Source: Candidatus Magasanikbacteria bacterium CG_4_10_14_0_2_um_filter_33_14
Lineage (GTDB): Bacteria; Patescibacteriota; Patescibacteriia; Magasanikbacterales; UBA922
NCBI GenBank assembly: GCA_002793035.1
Contig: PFPL01000045.1
Span: 9,669 to 73,668, forward strand
Length of the DNA: 64,000 bases
Reading direction: 5' to 3'
Shown in pieces: positions 5,737 through 22,822 of the stretch. Position numbers and translations under genes: made by a program. Every line of letters starts with the position of its first letter. The stretch's first letter is position 1. The notes beneath the pieces are model-generated. The model ran no database searches and was not told where the DNA came from. It saw only the letters and a program-made list of their open reading frames with translations.

Positions 5737-6282
5737 ATGAAATTTTCTTTCAAAAAAGTGCTAAGTAGACAGGTTTTTGAGGTAAGTATTTCGTTTGTTA
5801 TTGTTATCTCTTTCTTTACAAGTACTCTATTACCTCAAGTTGTAGATGCTCAAACTGGATTTTTCGCTAATCTTAGCGGAATATTCTCAAAAGATGATAT
5901 TTCTGAAGAAATTTTAGAAAATTCAGCTCTTTTCCCAGATCTTGAAGACGCTGAACCAAGAAAAATAGTTTATTCTGTCATGACCGCTTACTCTAGTGAA
6001 GCTGCTCAAACAGATGATTCACCTTGTATCCCTGCTGATTATAAATATAATTTGTGTGAACATTACGAACAAGAAGGTGAACAAAATAGTATTGCTGCCA
6101 ACTTTTTGCCTATGGGTACAAAAGTACGTTTTCCAGATCTATATGGTGATAAAATCTTCGTTGTTCGTGATCGTATGAATGCTAGATATGGATATGGTAG
6201 AGGAGATATTTGGATGCCTACCAAGGCTGAAGCTATTTCTTTTGGGGTCAAAAGAGTGAAGATGGAAATCTTTTATAGATAA
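5737..6282 (+). CDS. 3D-domain (MltA/YuiC-like) cell-wall protein with signal peptide
   Basis: 181 aa; signal/TM; the C-terminal MTAYSSEAAQTDDSPCIPADY...YGRGDIWMPTKAEAISFG resembles the 3D (Asp-rich) domain of YocH/YuiC-type proteins. Confidence 0.5.
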   Translation: MKFSFKKVLSRQVFEVSISFVIVISFFTSTLLPQVVDAQTGFFANLSGIFSKDDISEEILENSALFPDLEDAEPRKIVYSVMTAYSSEAAQTDDSPCIPADYKYNLCEHYEQEGEQNSIAANFLPMGTKVRFPDLYGDKIFVVRDRMNARYGYGRGDIWMPTKAEAISFGVKRVKMEIFYR

Positions 6283-6351: not shown

Positions 6352-6412
6352 GAAATTTTGATATTAAAAACTGTTTGGAAATTAAAAATTCCTAAATTTA
6401 GGAATTTTTATA

Positions 6413-6470
6413 GAGGTACCGGCGAGAATCGCCCCGCCCTTCGCGAAGGGCGGGGGTTGCAGACTCTGCT
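6413..6470 (-). repeat. partial duplicate of the tRNA-Cys 3' end (T-arm/acceptor) fused to a perfect 24-bp GC palindrome
   Basis: AGGTACCGGCGAGAATCG (18 bp) repeats the 3' end of the adjacent tRNA-Cys. It is followed by CCCCGCCCTTCGCGAAGGGCGGGG (a perfect palindrome). No 5' acceptor complement is present, so it is not a functional tRNA. Confidence 0.5.
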
Positions 6471-6487
6471 TTAATTTTAAGTTTGTT

Positions 6488-6562
6488 TGGAGGTACCGGC
6501 GAGAATCGAACTCACGAATAGAGGTTTTGCAGACCCCTGCCTTACCGCTTGGCTACGGTACC
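6488..6562 (-). tRNA. tRNA-Cys (GCA)
   Basis: Manual cloverleaf: acceptor GGTACCG/CGGTACC, D-arm GCC/GGC, anticodon loop CTGCAAA (GCA), T-arm GTGAG-TTCGATT-CTCGC, discriminator T, CCA encoded. Confidence 0.85.
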
Positions 6563-6827
6563 ATAATATTTTTTACCCAGCTATGATAACACAAAATCTT
6601 TTTAATTTCAATAGTTTACAATTTGTAAAGATAATCTTAACAAAAAGTTATATACATGTTATAGTATGCTGTTCCGTTTTATACGGATAAGTACATTACA
6701 AAAGATAGTTTTAGTGGAGTTTTTTGTCGGTAGGGGATTTTTGTTTCTTTTTTTAAGATATAGAAATCCCCATTCCGACAGGATAATTCTGTTCGGATTT
6801 TACTTTCCAGGGGGAAAGGAGTTTGCC

Positions 6828-7889
6828 GTGATTCTCAATTTCCGTTTCTTGAGCACTCTCGTGCTCATGGCGTTCTTCGTCCTCGTCTCGGCTTGCCGAT
6901 CGGGTGAAGAGGATACTTTCAACAAAGAACTGCTGAGCAACTCGGCTACGGTCGTCAAGCAGCCAAAACCTCAGTGGGGAGGCGCCAAGGAAGACCGCGA
7001 CCAGTGGGGTGAGAGCTCCAAGCCGGAGATGGTTGAGTGCCCTCTCGACCACAATAACCGGTTCAATAAACATTGGGATATGGTGTCCTCTGACACTTGT
7101 CTGGCGCGTGTTCGTCATTCTTCCCCCTCCTACCTCAAGCTACAGCAGGAGAACGACGAGCGTGTCAAGTTGGAGGCACAGCAGAAGACTCATGAAGAGC
7201 ATGAGAAGGCTCGTCGCATCGAAGAAAGGAAGGTGCTCGTAGAGCGTCTCAAGACTTGCTTCGACAAGGAAGATAGTCGTCCTCAGTGGCGACAGGATGT
7301 CGAGTTTGGACTTCGTGCCAAGGACGTTCTTCTCGAGGTGCAGTACGACGACTACGTCGACAGCAAGGTCTATCCCTGCTATGACGACGCGAGGCTCTGC
7401 GTCAAGGATGTCGAGGGCTGTGAGCTCGTCGAGCAGTCCAAGAAGTACAACCTCGAGCGAGACAAGAACTTCGTCGCGCTTATTTGGAAGATTCTCAACT
7501 CCAAGGAGGAGATCGCTCCCCGACAGTTCTGTTGGGATGGATGCTCGGTCTTCTCGCGTGGTGATCTCGCTCGTAAGACGATGGTTGTCATGGAGAAGTA
7601 CGGGTGGACGCCTGAGGACTTCGGCTCCAAGACCGATGACTTCGTGGTGGCCATCAAGAAGAGTTATCAAGAGGCCTTCAAGTTCGCCACCCAGGACATT
7701 GAAGTCGTCTTCAAATGCAAAAAGGACGACCAGGAGGGAGTATTCCTCGACGAGGATTGTCAGTTTCTCGAAACTGAGCAATCCGATGTTTTGTCGGCTC
7801 TCTGTGACGAGTTCTTGAGAACGGCTTCCTTTGCTGGGCTGACCTCTGAGCAGATCAGCAAGCTCCATTGTGAGGGTTTTGACGAGTAG
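6828..7889 (+). CDS. GC-rich, cysteine-rich, acidic putative lipoprotein (compositionally foreign)
   Basis: GTG start preceded by GGGGAAAGGAG; signal peptide ending in lipobox LVSAC; about 14 Cys; coiled-coil segment. GC content clearly far above the flanks by eye (codons ctc/gtc/gac/aag). The overlapping ORFs on the other strand and frame are GC-rich artefacts. Confidence 0.55.
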   Translation: MILNFRFLSTLVLMAFFVLVSACRSGEEDTFNKELLSNSATVVKQPKPQWGGAKEDRDQWGESSKPEMVECPLDHNNRFNKHWDMVSSDTCLARVRHSSPSYLKLQQENDERVKLEAQQKTHEEHEKARRIEERKVLVERLKTCFDKEDSRPQWRQDVEFGLRAKDVLLEVQYDDYVDSKVYPCYDDARLCVKDVEGCELVEQSKKYNLERDKNFVALIWKILNSKEEIAPRQFCWDGCSVFSRGDLARKTMVVMEKYGWTPEDFGSKTDDFVVAIKKSYQEAFKFATQDIEVVFKCKKDDQEGVFLDEDCQFLETEQSDVLSALCDEFLRTASFAGLTSEQISKLHCEGFDE

Positions 7890-19899: not shown

Positions 19900-20286
19900 T
19901 TAAAGCTCTTGAGTGATAGTCTTTTTACAACTAACACAAGAACCAGAAGTAGGTCTTGCACGCAATCTTTTTTCTTCAATAGGTTGTTTACAGTATTTAC
20001 AAATACCATAAGTACCTGCTTTGATAGATTTCAAAGCCTTGTCTACATCTTTCAATTCTTTTTCAAGTTGTAGTTCTACAGGTTTGTTCGCTAAGTATTC
20101 TGTGACTTCTTGGGTGTTTTCGTCCACATCGTCGCCATATTCAGAGTAAGATGTTTCATATTCATCAGCTACATGTGGATCTTTTTTTGCAAATTTATCT
20201 AATTCAGCTACTAATTTAGCTCTTTGTTCGGTAATTAAAGTTTCCATCTCTTTGATAAGTTGTGGATCTAGTGTTATTTTTGTCAT
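19900..20286 (-). CDS. DksA/TraR-family C4 zinc-finger protein
   Basis: C-terminal CKYCKQPIEEKRLRARPTSGSCVSC; coiled-coil N-terminus. Confidence 0.7.
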   Translation of the reverse strand: MTKITLDPQLIKEMETLITEQRAKLVAELDKFAKKDPHVADEYETSYSEYGDDVDENTQEVTEYLANKPVELQLEKELKDVDKALKSIKAGTYGICKYCKQPIEEKRLRARPTSGSCVSCKKTITQEL

Positions 20287-20371
20287 ATTATTTTATTGTT
20301 TTTATAGGAAAATTATATAATAATTTAGCTAAAAAGGCAAGAGGGGAAGTTTTATTTTTAATTTTGGCAAA

Positions 20372-20640
20372 AAAAAAGAGGCAAACCGTGGCCCAAATAG
20401 AATTTAGTGGCTGGTGCCTCTAGTAATCCCAATGTGCCGGTATTGTCCAAGCTTCTTAAATACTTTAATTTCTTAAAATACTTAAATAGCTTGGAAAATG
20501 CCAGGTAAAACCTGGGATTTTATAGCTTTGACCGCTCGCTGGTGGAAGCCTCTGACAAGTTTCTGTTTAGGAACGCTTGTTATGGTAGAGGACACCTGTT
20601 AAACTTTTGTGTTTGTTTTTGGACATTCTCCGAAGAGATT
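20372..20640 (+). ncRNA. GC-rich structured RNA candidate, possibly RNase P RNA (rnpB)
   Basis: A GC-rich island in AT-rich context with no ORF. UGCCAGGUAAAACCUGGG resembles the E. coli RNase P segment UGCCAGGUAACGCCUGGG. GUAUUGUCCAAGC (P4 5' strand-like, cf. AAAGUCCGGGC) is complementary to the downstream UUUUUGGACAUUC (P4 3' strand-like). The conserved ACAGARA was not found, so the call is weak. Confidence 0.3.
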
Positions 20641-20851
20641 GTCTGGGTGCAAGCAGTGCTCTAAGCTGTGAGAGAGATTCCCACGTGTGTCTTCTTACCG
20701 TATATCTCTGATATCCGTTATCGAAGTCTTCATGTTGGAAACTCTTTTGTAATGTTCACAAATATATTATACCATTTTTTTCACTATTTGTCAATAGTGC
20801 GGGGTTATTGGCTTAGTTTAGCGTAAAAATAGTATATATTAGCCAAAAAAA

Positions 20852-20871
20852 TGTATAAACTAGTCTATACA
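20852..20871. repeat. dyad-symmetric motif copy 1 (TGTATAnnnnnnnnTATACA)
   Basis: tgtataaactagtctataca. Confidence 0.5.
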
Positions 20872-20891
20872 ATGTTAAAAAGAATGATAAC

Positions 20892-20932
20892 TTGTCCACA
20901 AAAGCGAAGAGTTTTCCACAGCTTTATCCACA
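20892..20932 (+). promoter_or_regulatory. cluster of three co-oriented DnaA boxes
   Basis: TTGTCCACA (20892-20900), TTTTCCACA (20913-20921), TTATCCACA (20924-20932, perfect consensus); a fourth TTGTCCACA lies at 21224-21232. Confidence 0.45.
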
Positions 20933-20933
20933 A

Positions 20934-20953
20934 TGTATAGGATAATCTATACA
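20934..20953. repeat. dyad motif copy 2
   Basis: tgtataggataatctataca, abutting the perfect DnaA box. Confidence 0.5.
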
Positions 20954-21079
20954 AAAACTAGTTTTCACTTGTGAAAAAACAGTGGATTTGTTGTGACTTG
21001 TTGTATTTTCAAATAGCTTGATCTATGTTTTTTGTGTGTAATACATCTTTTTATTGTTGTTCCCTAAGATTATGTACAA

Positions 21080-21099
21080 TGTATAGGAAAGTCTATACA
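21080..21099. repeat. dyad motif copy 3
   Basis: tgtataggaaagtctataca. Confidence 0.5.
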
Positions 21100-21234
21100 A
21101 ATATCAATATTCATTATGTTTGGGATTATTTTTTAAAAAATATTTGTATTCTCCAAAAAAGATAGATAAAATTTTTCATAAAATTTGACTGTTATACACA
21201 GTTTTTGAGTCTTTTCCCCAGTATTGTCCACATT

Positions 21235-21254
21235 TGTATAGGTTTTTGTAGACA
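21235..21254. repeat. dyad motif copy 4 (left boundary of the GC-rich islet)
   Basis: tgtataggtttttgtagaca; direct repeat of the copy at 22594-22613. Confidence 0.5.
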
Positions 21255-21385
21255 AATTATATAAAAACATTAACTTATAAAAAAAAACACCAATAAATTG
21301 GTGGGTTTGTAATATTGAATAGTATGTTGTGCAGGTTCCCGCGTCTTCCCTCCTTGTTTTAAGAGTTGACGCGGGTTACCTTGTT

Positions 21386-21864
21386 TTATCCCAAGTAGAG
21401 ACCTCTCTTTTTGAGCTTCTCCAGAGTGGTCCAGCCCTGCTTGAAGGCTCTCTGGGTAAACACCTGCCCTAAGCGTTTCAGCTTGTCGGTATATGGGGTC
21501 CAAGTAGAGCAGCGAACCCTTTCCTCTTCGTTGACACCACGCATGATGTCGAAACTATTGAGGGGTGGGCGTAGAGGTTGAGCAGGATGGTCTCGCCATC
21601 TGCTTTGTTTTCGGGGAGGTGGCCGTGTTCGAAGTAGTCGAGGGCTTCCTCTCAGGTGAGCCACTTTTTCTCCAGTCCGTGCAAGAACCAGCTGATCTGG
21701 TTTGTGCCGAGACGTTGGAAGCTCGGCATGATTTGCCGGAGATCTTCAAGAATTCTCTTGAGGATCTGGAAATCCTCACTAGAAATATTCTCGAGATCAG
21801 AGATCAGCTGCTCGCAGTCTCGCAAGGTGCAAGCCAGCTGTTGATATGTCCTGTCAATTGGCAA
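21386..21864 (-). pseudogene. third gene of the GC-rich islet operon, interrupted by an in-frame TGA and a frameshift
   Basis: TTG start 6 nt after GGAGGA. The 70-aa ORF ends at TGA (21652-21654); same-frame read-through gives a plausible RKPLDYFEHGHLPENKADGETILLNLYAHP. A second frame continues as ...EEERVRCSTWTPYTDKLKRLGQVFTQRAFKQGWTTLEKLKKRGLYLG to 21386. Confidence 0.4.
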
Positions 21865-21866
21865 TT

Positions 21867-22130
21867 TCAGTCCTCCTGGTTGCAGTTGCCTTTGCAGCAG
21901 CAGTTATCTCTTGGGTCGCACTTGTTGCATTTGGAACAGTGCCGGTAATGACAATGTTCACATTTGCAGGTGAAGCGTTCGTCGATGATAGCTCGACAGT
22001 AGAAGCAGGTTGTGAAGTACCATCTCTTTCCACAATTGGGACAAAGACGAGCAGGATAGCCGTCTTTTGTTTCGTCCGATGTGGAAATGTGTCCGCATTC
22101 GCAGACGTATTCGTTGGTCTGTCTGTTCAA
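21867..22130 (-). CDS. cysteine-rich zinc-ribbon-like small protein, paralog 2 (novel family)
   Basis: 87 aa, 17 Cys. Shares with the upstream paralog the pattern CxCG-x9/10-GxPARxC-x2-CxKxWYxTTCFxC-x4-DER-...-CDP-x3-CxCxGxC. GC-rich codon usage. Confidence 0.6.
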   Translation of the reverse strand: MNRQTNEYVCECGHISTSDETKDGYPARLCPNCGKRWYFTTCFYCRAIIDERFTCKCEHCHYRHCSKCNKCDPRDNCCCKGNCNQED

Positions 22131-22249
22131 ATTTGTTTCTCCTTTGTAAGTGGACTTATTTTAAGTATAGCTAGGGAAATTGTTAAATGTCAATTTTTTT
22201 TATAAACAATGAAGCCCTCTTGTATTTCACAAGTGGGCTTTATCATTGA

Positions 22250-22519
22250 TCAGCAGGACCCTTCGCAGGTGCATTCACCTGAAGGATCACAGCTTCCGCA
22301 AGTGGGGCAGTGGAGGTTTTTGCAGACATTACAGACCTTGTTGAGACGTTCGTCTAGATGAGTGTCACAGAGAAAACAGGTAGTATAGTACCAAATTTTC
22401 TCGCAACTAAGACAGCGCCTGGCAGGATTACCATGCTTGTAGTCAGCCGTGGTGTATCCTCCACAGTCGCAAATATTTTTTGGATCAATCTTTTTTGCAG
22501 GACCTTCTCTAACACGCAT
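22250..22519 (-). CDS. cysteine-rich zinc-ribbon-like small protein, paralog 1 (novel family)
   Basis: 89 aa, 16 Cys; RBS AAGGAG 6 nt upstream of ATG; first gene of the minus-strand operon. Confidence 0.6.
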   Translation of the reverse strand: MRVREGPAKKIDPKNICDCGGYTTADYKHGNPARRCLSCEKIWYYTTCFLCDTHLDERLNKVCNVCKNLHCPTCGSCDPSGECTCEGSC

Positions 22520-22559
22520 TTTGTAGCTCCTTCTTGGGAAGTGTCAAAGAGATACTTTT

Positions 22560-22587
22560 AGTATAGTACTTTGACATGTTATGTCAA
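22560..22587 (-). promoter_or_regulatory. near-consensus sigma70-type promoter for the islet operon
   Basis: On the minus strand: TTGACA-N16-TATACT, 39 nt upstream of the ATG. The -35 lies within the palindrome TTGACATAACATGTCAA. Confidence 0.45.
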
Positions 22588-22593
22588 TACTTT

Positions 22594-22613
22594 TGTATAG
22601 ATTGTTGTAGACA
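22594..22613. repeat. dyad motif copy 5 (right boundary of the islet, just upstream of the promoter)
   Basis: tgtatagattgttgtagaca. Confidence 0.5.
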
Positions 22614-22822
22614 AAGTGCATGAAAACATTTAAACATAAAAGTATCAAAACAATATAAATAAAAATAACAATAAAAAATTTATTATAAATATAAGTAAAA
22701 TGTTTTTATAATTTTGTTTTCTTGTTCTGGTATTTCATTGTTTTTATGAAATGAAATTATCAACACCTGCCCAATAATAGTAAAAAATGCTATACTACTT
22801 TTGTAACAATTAATCTTTTTAT

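What the first reader, a model, noticed from the sequence alone, without database searches (positions are those of the whole stretch)
21235..22613. 1.3-kb GC-atypical islet bracketed by approx 20-bp direct dyad repeats, with its own near-consensus promoter
The segment between the repeat copies tgtataggtttttgtagaca (21235-21254) and tgtatagattgttgtagaca (22594-22613) is sharply GC-richer than the AT-rich flanks. It contains a three-gene minus-strand operon with canonical SD sequences (AAGGAG; GGAGGA). It is driven by TTGACA-N16-TATACT, with a palindrome over the -35 and a dyad repeat copy at about -50. Direct repeats flanking a compositionally foreign, promoter-equipped cassette point to site-specific acquisition by integration or a cassette-like mechanism. 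No integrase lies within it. The payload is entirely unrecognised Cys-rich proteins.
Basis: partly seen in the sequence, partly recalled or inferred. Interest (0 to 1): 0.85.

Follow-up and report, generated by a model that had tools for sequence, protein, structure and literature searches.

The report
Foreign gene islet between duplicated host sites
A 1.3-kb GC-rich piece of foreign DNA, carrying two genes for tiny cysteine-rich (probably zinc-binding) proteins and one broken gene, sits between two copies of a host sequence in a Magasanikbacteria (CPR) chromosome. Close relatives have the same site empty with only one copy, so it is a genuine but fairly ordinary small genomic islet that lacks its own integrase.

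Summary
A 1,301-bp segment (21288-22588) has 46% GC against 33.6% for the window, and GC3 of 0.44-0.79 against 0.24 for host genes. It lies between two direct copies of a dyad-bearing sequence. These copies are about 53 nt ungapped or about 70 nt gapped, far above chance.

Three related Magasanikbacteria genomes keep the flanking synteny but lack the islet. A fourth lineage has a shorter, diverged islet at the same place.

The cargo is two paralogous 87-89-aa proteins with about 12 conserved Cys. They belong to a very rare family (18 clusters in 1.84 billion proteins, no Pfam or structural match). Each gene has its own near-consensus promoter. A third, non-Cys-rich gene is a pseudogene here (TGG to TGA plus a frameshift).

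The dyad is a host motif. Three further copies lie upstream among DnaA-box-like clusters and beside an unclassified ~390-nt structured-RNA candidate.

The best reading is an integrase-less, att-flanked islet (CIME-like) made by Campbell-type recombination. Gain versus loss and the recombinase remain unresolved. Interest is moderate.

The parts
21230..21298 (+). Left repeat copy ('D4'). The dyad ATTTGTATAG|GTTTTT|GTAGACAAAT lies at 21232-21257 (20-mer 21235-21254), followed by an AT-rich arm. It is identical in dyad and spacer to the single copy in the empty-site genome L007; L008 differs at one dyad base.
21279..21303 (-). Intrinsic terminator closing the islet: hairpin CACCAATTTATTGGTG at 21303->21288, followed by a T-run.
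   Evidence: sequence
21386..21864 (-). ORF3 pseudogene. It has a TTG start at 21864 and the SD GGAGGA at 21871-21876. An in-frame TGA at 21652-21654 stands where the L012 homologue has TGG (Trp). A frameshift lies between 21526 and 21493. It is 36% identical to the intact 152-aa protein P0021 of L012.
21867..22130 (-). Cys2, an 87-aa Cys-rich protein with a TTG start and the SD AAGGAG. It is 44% identical to Cys1 (alignment) and 53% identical to P0001 over 75 aligned residues.
22164..22193 (-). Promoter of Cys2/ORF3: TTGACA-N18-TATACT (11 of 12).
22210..22240 (-). Hairpin after Cys1, a possible terminator or stabiliser. A hairpin at the same position exists in L012 with a different stem sequence.
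   Evidence: sequence (inference; not flagged by the terminator scan)
22250..22519 (-). Cys1, an 89-aa Cys-rich protein with an ATG start and the SD AAGGAG. It is 63% identical to P0001 of L012.
22560..22587 (-). Promoter of Cys1: TTGACA-N16-TATACT (11 of 12).
22589..22660 (+). Right repeat copy ('D5'). The dyad 20-mer lies at 22594-22613 with spacer ATTGTT, followed by an AT-rich arm that continues into host right-flank sequence. The dyad centre is about -50 from the Cys1 transcription start.
20852..21099 (.). Host dyads D1 (20852-20871), D2 (20934-20953) and D3 (21080-21099). All are perfect palindromes TGTATAR-N6-YTATACA. D1 and D2 are conserved in all five related genomes. D3 is a local duplicate of the D2 unit.

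Best explanation
The segment is a small, horizontally acquired genomic islet that has no recombinase of its own. It sits in a Candidatus Magasanikbacteria chromosome between attL/attR-like direct repeats.

Shown:
- The islet is foreign at synonymous sites.
- It is bounded by two copies of a host sequence of about 50-70 bp (a 26-bp dyad plus an AT-rich arm).
- Related genomes have the same site empty with a single copy.
- A diverged version occupies the same site in another lineage.

Inferred:
- A circular DNA carrying a similar dyad-plus-arm site recombined with the host site in a Campbell-type, most likely recombinase-mediated, event. This duplicated the site.
- The crossover lay to the right of the dyad spacer. 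The left copy keeps the host-type spacer, while the right copy has a distinct spacer shared by both islets.
- The recombinase was either supplied in trans or lost with the rest of a larger element, leaving a CIME-like remnant.
- The right copy places the host dyad about 50 bp upstream of the incoming Cys1 promoter, so it may now also act as an operator.

Cargo: two paralogous proteins, each with about a dozen conserved cysteines, probably binding several zinc ions. Each is expressed from its own near-consensus sigma-70 promoter. A partner gene is decaying in this genome. The biochemical role is unknown. A nucleic-acid-related role is a weak guess.
For: Repeats and their significance.

Empty sites: L007 and L008 have one copy. 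The left flank matches the window left of D4 and the right flank matches the window right of D5. The distance from dyad to gene is 215 nt in L008 against 209 nt from D5 in the window.

Same-site islet: L012-L017 have 26-nt flanking dyads with 1,087-nt spacing.

Foreign composition: GC3 0.44-0.79 against 0.24 +/- 0.08, including in the pseudogene. GC is 46% against 33.6%.

No recombinase: none lies in the islet or among the window ORFs examined.

Not an assembly artefact: both junctions are 100% identical in independent contigs from many samples and three sources.

Spacer pattern: the D4 spacer is GTTTTT in the window and both empty sites and AGTTTT in L012. The D5 spacer is ATTGTT in the window and ATTGGT in L012.

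The dyad comes from the host site: Cys-family genes in other hosts have no dyad and no flanking repeats.

Promoters and terminator.
Against: No donor element, attP, circular junction or recombinase was found.

The two copies are only about 79% identical, and their 6-bp spacers differ at 2-3 positions. Present-day recombination by a tyrosine recombinase at the dyad itself is therefore unlikely.

In L012 only the 26-nt dyad is shared between the two ends.

Synonymous divergence between the window and L012 is similar for islet and flank: dS 0.98 and 1.33 against 1.24. This fits one old insertion followed by loss at least as well as repeated site-specific gain. An old insertion sits awkwardly with the persisting high GC3.

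The dyad is a conserved host motif with other copies, so some of the 'repeat' signal could be regulatory rather than a recombination scar.
Confidence: 0.55

Rival explanations
1. The dyads are operator sites of a host DNA-binding protein, and the two flanking copies are simply neighbouring members of that site array. On this view the islet entered by homologous or illegitimate recombination, for example after natural transformation, and not by site-specific recombination. D5 is kept because it regulates the Cys1 promoter.
For: Five dyads cluster in 1.8 kb. D1 and D2 are conserved at fixed positions in all related genomes, with D1 identical over 20 of 20 bases in four of them. The array changes copy number on its own, since D3 is a duplicate of the D2 unit. 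D5 keeps a fixed position 6-8 nt upstream of the -35 in both islets. In L012 only the dyad is shared between the ends. ComM and type IV pilus genes lie in the window.
Against: In the window the similarity runs well beyond the dyad into the AT-rich arm (score 55 against at most 38 in controls). The empty sites have exactly one copy, with the left flank of D4 and the right flank of D5. This is the signature of a duplication or deletion across the repeats, not of independent operator copies.
Confidence: 0.2
2. It is an IMEX-like element. The dyad, with 10-bp inverted arms around a 6-bp spacer, would be a Xer-type (dif-like) site, and a host XerC/D-type recombinase would integrate the integrase-less element, as with CTX-phi, the gonococcal island or Legionella LME-1.
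For: The dyad has a 10-6-10 geometry. The element is integrase-less and flanked by direct copies of the site, and the downstream copy is modified. Comparable cases are described in PMC9765430 and PMC5357621.
Against: The site is about 20 kb from dnaN, whereas the LME-1/dif site described in PMC9765430 lies close to the replication terminus. GC skew does not change sign here. The host carries several dyad copies rather than one unique dif. By eye, and from memory of the consensus, I saw no resemblance to the conserved XerD arm of known dif sites. The spacers of D4 and D5 differ, and the inferred crossover lies outside the dyad spacer.
Confidence: 0.06
3. It is a native, fast-evolving locus. The genes would be ancestral to this Magasanikbacteria group, GC-rich for selective reasons, and simply deleted in some lineages by recombination between flanking repeats.
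For: The islet is present at the same locus in two lineages whose flanks are as diverged as those of the empty-site genomes. Islet dS is similar to flank dS.
Against: GC3 is 2-3 times the host value even in a pseudogene, which selection cannot maintain. The ORF3 family has no other relative, and the Cys family is vanishingly rare and scattered across unrelated hosts. In hosts of moderate GC the family is compositionally native, which points to transfer into the AT-rich genomes.
Confidence: 0.12
4. It is an assembly chimera or a contaminating fragment.
For: Many assemblies break inside or beside the region, at window positions 20340, 20597, 20739, 21343, 22341, 22415 and 22423. One scaffold has an N-gap at 22414.
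Against: Contigs from ENA, JGI and Logan assemblies of different samples span both junctions at 100% identity. A homologous islet lies at the same site in another lineage.
Confidence: 0.01

Closest known systems
[quoted passage not shown]
   Same: It is a small insert flanked by direct att-like repeats derived from the target. It carries no integrase, excisionase or transfer genes. The empty site in relatives has one repeat copy.
   Different: No parent ICE, IME or prophage using this site is known. The repeats are only about 79% identical. The target is an intergenic dyad rather than a tRNA or gene end. The host is a CPR bacterium. Mobilisation in trans is untested.
IMEX elements (CTX-phi, TLC-phi, gonococcal genetic island, Legionella LME-1) that use host Xer recombinases at dif (PMC9765430, PMC5357621)
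   Same: It is integrase-less and flanked by two direct copies of a dyad site with inverted arms around a 6-bp spacer. The downstream copy is modified.
   Different: It is not at the terminus. The site is not unique in the host. I saw no resemblance to known dif sites by eye. The inferred crossover lies outside the dyad spacer.
pdif modules of Acinetobacter plasmids: genes flanked by XerC/D-like sites (PMC7399989)
   Same: It is a gene module of about 1-3 kb without a recombinase, bracketed by short dyad sites.
   Different: From my own knowledge, pdif sites flank modules in inverted orientation on plasmids. Here the copies are direct, chromosomal and extend about 30-45 nt beyond the dyad.
Integron gene cassettes
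   Same: It is a short mobile-looking unit with one to three small genes of unknown function and a palindromic element at the boundary.
   Different: The cassette has its own strong promoters and a terminator. No intI or attI was found in the window ORFs examined. The boundary repeats are copies of the host target, not attC.
Small multi-zinc-ribbon proteins (for example ZifS TTHA0897, YfgJ)
   Same: The proteins are under 100 aa, have many CxxC pairs and a beta-rich predicted fold.

Membership tests
CIME / integrase-less att-flanked islet | Flanked by direct repeats (attL/attR) that are copies of the target site | tested here: met
   21230-21298 vs 22589-22660 give a local score of 55 against at most 38 in controls. 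There is a single copy in L007 and L008.
CIME / integrase-less att-flanked islet | No integration, excision or transfer genes inside | tested here: met
   The only ORFs are Cys1, Cys2 and the ORF3 pseudogene. None matches Pfam, PHROGs, PADLOC or NCBIfam.
CIME / integrase-less att-flanked islet | Derived from, or mobilised in trans by, a related element with a cognate integrase at the same att site | tested here: inconclusive
   No related element was found in phage, plasmid or viral-contig collections.
CIME / integrase-less att-flanked islet | Excision to a circular form and restoration of attB | not testable with these tools
   This needs read-level data or an experiment.
IMEX (Xer-exploiting element) | The target is the chromosomal dif site at the replication terminus | tested here: not met
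   dnaN lies at 371-1498, about 20 kb away. GC skew shows no + to - switch here. The host has five dyad copies.
IMEX (Xer-exploiting element) | The site has two inverted arms around a 6-8-bp central region | tested here: met
   ATTTGTATAG|GTTTTT|GTAGACAAAT has 8 of 10 arm positions symmetric.
IMEX (Xer-exploiting element) | Recombination is catalysed by host XerC/D (or XerL/S/H) | not testable with these tools
   No Xer gene is in the window ORFs examined. The rest of the genome was not available.
Integron cassette | attC recombination site and an adjacent intI/attI platform; the cassette is usually promoterless | tested here: not met
   There are two 11/12 promoters and a terminator inside. 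No integrase was found in the window ORFs examined.
IS / MITE | Terminal inverted repeats and a short (2-14 bp) target-site duplication | tested here: not met
   No inverted repeat pairs the two islet ends among the 25 longest pairs listed. The duplication is at least 50 bp.
Known protein families for the cargo | Significant match to a curated family or a solved or predicted structure | tested here: not met

The most novel reading that the evidence does not exclude
The dyad-plus-arm site would be the attachment site of a still-active, recombinase-less cassette system in CPR bacteria. Small GC-rich, promoter-equipped modules would be inserted and removed in trans at a 26-bp (10-6-10) site. That site doubles as a host operator in a control region made of DnaA boxes, dyads and a non-coding RNA. 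The Cys-rich zinc proteins would be replication- or nucleic-acid-associated factors. The hints for this are their conserved position next to dnaE in other lineages and a cold-shock-domain fusion.
Probability: 0.1. Interest if true: 0.7.

Novelty: new member of a known kind. Interest (0 to 1): 0.4.

Why it matters
Mobile elements and horizontal transfer in CPR/Patescibacteria are poorly charted. This is a clean, small case with occupied and empty alleles and defined junctions. It could be used to look for the recombinase and donor element that act on these reduced genomes.

It also flags an extremely rare family of small proteins with about a dozen conserved cysteines, which moves between AT-rich and moderate-GC hosts and has no known function.

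Beside the islet lie two further features worth their own study. One is a conserved, strongly promoted ~390-nt structured RNA with no Rfam family. The other is a dyad/DnaA-box array.

None of this overturns current understanding. The islet is an example of a familiar phenomenon.

Tried and rejected
RNA gene as the cause of the GC bump. Rfam found nothing in 20200-22800 beyond chance miRNA-like hits, and the only tRNAs are elsewhere.

Alternative genetic code for the in-frame TGA. This was rejected because the L012 homologue has TGG at that codon and there is also a frameshift. Host ORFs of up to 1,257 aa are open under table 11. The 280-aa 'protein' P0019 is a read-through gene call that translates TGA stops as Trp.

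Homology of the Cys proteins to a T1-like phage helicase. The tblastn E-value was 0.07, but hhalign gave a probability of 1.6%, so it was rejected.

First word-index homologue search. It found nothing. The exhaustive profile search was needed.

Viral-contig scans. The dyad scan gave one hit, inside a coding region of a phage that is not AT-rich, so it is chance. The scan for Cys proteins found none.

Phage and plasmid BLAST of the islet DNA (phages only), Cys1 and ORF3. No match.

Metagenome scan with the 310-aa flank. It only re-found L008 and L009, so site occupancy could not be sampled more widely.

oriC at this locus. dnaN is about 20 kb away and the skew gives no signal, so the DnaA-box clusters were left as an unexplained side observation.

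Population-level empty allele. Every contig carrying the exact 310-aa protein that spans the site has the islet.

First dyad search. It used a pattern one base too long and found nothing. It was corrected.

An alignment of 19 family members was too diverse for a locus scan.

Conclusion withdrawn. I first argued from GC3 persistence that the two islets must be independent recent arrivals. The dS values and a per-lineage recalculation make that argument only borderline, so I do not claim it.
Full report
**1. What is there**

The window is an AT-rich (33.6% GC) chromosome segment. It begins at dnaN (371-1498). By its closest public relatives it belongs to Candidatus Magasanikbacteria, a CPR lineage.

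Between a minus-strand block (ComM, LspA, a DksA/TraR-type zinc-finger gene) and a plus-strand block (a 310-aa gene, a G6PD-6PGD fusion, YchF) lies a 2.5-kb gene-poor stretch. Inside it, 21288-22588 has 46.1% GC. The immediate flanks have 25% and 19%. It is the second most GC-rich 1.3-kb stretch of the window.

The excess is not only an amino-acid effect. GC3 of the islet reading frames is 0.44-0.79 against 0.24 +/- 0.08 for 33 host ORFs.

**2. The repeats**

The pattern TGTATAR-N7-TAKACA has five sites in 64 kb, all between 20852 and 22613. That is 8 strand-matches against 0.75 expected, reached by none of 100 shuffles.

The two copies that flank the islet are similar well beyond the dyad.
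- Ungapped, they share 53 nt at 79%.
- Gapped, 21230-21298 aligns with 22589-22660 at a local score of 55.
- Shuffles reach at most 37, and 350 other AT-rich segments of the window reach at most 38.

Each dyad reads as two 10-bp inverted arms around a 6-bp spacer: ATTTGTATAG|GTTTTT|GTAGACAAAT.

**3. Anatomy of the islet (minus strand)**

- The right repeat (D5) ends 6 nt upstream of a TTGACA-N16-TATACT promoter (22587->22560).
- Cys1 follows (22519->22250, SD AAGGAG), then a hairpin.
- A second promoter, TTGACA-N18-TATACT (22193->22164), comes next.
- Cys2 follows (22130->21867, TTG start, SD AAGGAG).
- ORF3 starts 2 nt after the Cys2 stop. Its SD GGAGGA overlaps the last Cys2 codons.
- A clean intrinsic terminator (hairpin 21303->21288 plus T-run) abuts the left repeat (D4).

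So there are two transcription units, not one operon.

ORF3 is broken. Its in-frame TGA (21652-21654) aligns with a TGG (Trp) codon in the intact 152-aa homologue of a related islet. The C-terminal third continues in another frame.

**4. Related genomes**

A scan with the 310-aa flank protein found three Magasanikbacteria MAGs, L007, L008 and L009, at 81-85% protein identity. All keep the flanking synteny and none has the islet.

In L007 and L008 the sequence left of the dyad matches the window left of D4. A single dyad follows, identical to D4 in L007 and differing at one base in L008. The sequence to its right matches the window right of D5. The dyad-to-gene distance is 215 nt in L008, against 209 nt from D5 in the window.

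L009 lacks the D4 unit altogether.

Conversely, the closest homologue of Cys1 (P0001, 63% identity) lies in a further lineage, L012-L017, whose flank protein is 78% identical. There, a 1.09-kb GC-rich islet sits at exactly the same place. It has one Cys gene plus an intact ORF3 homologue and is flanked by 26-nt dyad copies.

The spacer of the left copy is host-type in every genome: GTTTTT or AGTTTT. The spacer of the right copy is a distinct type shared by both islets: ATTGTT or ATTGGT. If the structure arose by recombination between a host site and an element site, the crossover therefore lay to the right of the dyad spacer, in the AT-rich arm.

**5. Not an artefact**

Contigs from ENA, JGI and Logan assemblies of many samples cover both junctions at 100% identity. 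No contig of this strain shows an empty allele.

Many assemblies do break in or beside the region. The break points are 20340, 20597, 20739, 21343, 22341, 22415 and 22423, and one scaffold has an N-gap at 22414. I cannot explain this without reads.

**6. Age and direction**

Synonymous divergence between the window and L012 is similar for the flank gene and the islet genes.

| Gene | dS | dN |
|---|---|---|
| 310-aa flank gene | 1.24 | 0.14 |
| Cys1 | 0.98 | 0.25 |
| ORF3 N-terminal part | 1.33 | 0.54 |

This pattern fits one old insertion that co-diverged with the host and was later lost precisely in other lineages. It fits at least as well as it fits repeated gains.

Against a long residence, GC3 is still 2-3 times the host value, even in the pseudogene. 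Host four-fold sites are largely turned over between these genomes: identity is 0.35-0.59 against about 0.39 expected at random. A rough decay calculation needs an implausibly GC-rich ancestor for ORF3 but not for Cys1.

I therefore leave gain versus loss open. Either way, the repeats are the boundaries of the event.

**7. Cargo**

Cys1 and Cys2 are 44% identical. They share about a dozen invariant Cys plus W, D-x-R and G/P positions.

An exhaustive profile search of 1.84 billion cluster representatives found only 18 proteins at E <= 1e-3. They share the pattern C-x-C...C-x2-C...W...C...D-x-R...C-x2-C...C-x2-C-x2-C...C.

No match was found in Pfam, PHROGs, PADLOC, NCBIfam or PDB sequences.

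One relative is fused to a cold-shock domain.

In two other lineages of moderate GC, the gene lies between a DUF948 gene and dnaE. In L027 a further 79-aa ORF separates it from dnaE. There it is compositionally native. In another AT-rich host (L018) it is again GC-atypical. None of these other copies has the dyad or flanking repeats. The dyad therefore belongs to the Magasanikbacteria target site, not to the gene family.

ORF3 has no detectable relative other than its L012 counterpart.

**8. Mechanism**

What is shown is a foreign, recombinase-less segment bounded by a duplicated host site, with empty and occupied alleles.

The most economical mechanism is Campbell-type integration of a circular DNA carrying a similar site. 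The recombinase would have been supplied in trans or lost during decay. This is the definition of a CIME (PMC5704250).

Three alternatives were weighed.
- An IMEX-like use of host Xer is attractive because of the 10-6-10 dyad. But the site is near dnaN, is not unique, shows no skew switch, and the inferred crossover lies outside the spacer. Compare PMC9765430.
- Integron cassette and IS/MITE readings fail on defining features.
- The main rival is that the dyads are operators of a host protein and D5 survives because it regulates Cys1. This can be true together with the integration model, since integration would have placed a host operator upstream of the incoming promoter.

**9. Surroundings worth noting**

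The same intergenic region holds three more perfect dyads (D1-D3). It also holds two clusters of three same-strand DnaA-box-like 9-mers, each cluster ending at a dyad.

It further contains a 12/12 extended -10 promoter (20794->20766). This drives a conserved ~390-nt transcript that ends at a U-tailed hairpin. The predicted consensus structure has 104 pairs, 9 of them with compensatory changes. There is no Rfam match even at E <= 10.

**10. Verdict**

It is a new member of a known kind: a small att-flanked genomic islet without an integrase. Its cargo family is uncharacterised and very rare, and its host clade has few described mobile elements. Interest is 0.4.

Noticed in passing
window ~20372-20794, minus strand: A candidate structured RNA of about 390 nt. 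It has a perfect TTGACA-N17-TG-n-TATAAT promoter (20794->20766) and a U-tailed terminal helix. It is 77-80% conserved in L007, L008, L009 and L012, with no ORF. RNAalifold predicts 104 pairs, 9 with compensatory changes. There is no Rfam family even at E <= 10.
   Followed up: partly
window 20892-20932 and 21192-21232 (+): Two clusters of three DnaA-box-like 9-mers (TTGTCCACA, TTTTCCACA, TTATCCACA, and so on). All are on the same strand, and each cluster is followed by a dyad. L007 has two perfect TTATCCACA boxes and one TTTTCCACA box at the equivalent place. The locus is about 20 kb from dnaN, so it may be a secondary DnaA-binding locus.
   Followed up: partly
window 20924-20967 vs 21070-21113: The host dyad array changes copy number on its own. 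D3 is a 44-nt, 80% duplicate of the D2 unit, and the window has about 120 nt here that L007 and L008 lack. Dyad counts are: L009 two plus one degenerate, L007 and L008 three, L012 four, the window five.
   Followed up: partly
window 6666-7889 (+): The most GC-rich stretch of the window (50% GC, GC3 0.65) is a 407-aa ORF with no Pfam or NCBIfam match. It lies between tRNA-Cys and an M23/LysM peptidase gene and is probably another foreign gene.
   Followed up: partly
window 6405-6431 and 6482-6508: A 27-nt direct repeat (89%) duplicates the 3' end of tRNA-Cys (6488-6562, minus strand) 77 nt away. It encloses a GC-rich hairpin (ccccgcccttcgcgaagggcgggg). It looks like an att-type scar or a tiny insertion at the tRNA end.
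   Followed up: partly
L007 ~5800-5900: The empty-site genome L007 carries a GC-rich hairpin insertion of about 100 nt (CGTCCCCCTTCTCGCGAGAGGGGGGACG...) between the dyad and the 310-aa gene. It is absent from the other genomes, so this intergenic region attracts small GC-rich insertions.
   Followed up: no
window 20340, 20597, 20739, 21343, 22341, 22415, 22423: Independent assemblies of this same strain repeatedly end at these points, and one scaffold has an N-gap at 22414 inside Cys1. This suggests co-occurring variants or coverage problems in the region. It is unexplained without reads.
   Followed up: partly
L023-L026 (gene 974-1255 in L023) and L027 (323-583): In two other lineages the Cys-rich family gene lies between a DUF948 gene and dnaE, with host-like GC3. 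In L027 a further 79-aa ORF separates it from dnaE. The family may be native there, and possibly replication-associated.
   Followed up: partly
L018 ~1120-1300: Upstream of the Cys-family gene in this AT-rich host lies a GC-richer stretch of about 170 nt. It has a promoter-like TTGACT, a closing helix (gcgcgttac...gtaacgcgt) and a T-run. It is a possible small RNA gene.
   Followed up: no
P0019 (280 aa; 1,748-nt contig): A public gene call reads straight through the islet, translating TGA stops as Trp. It is an artefact of an alternative-code gene call, not a real protein.
   Followed up: yes
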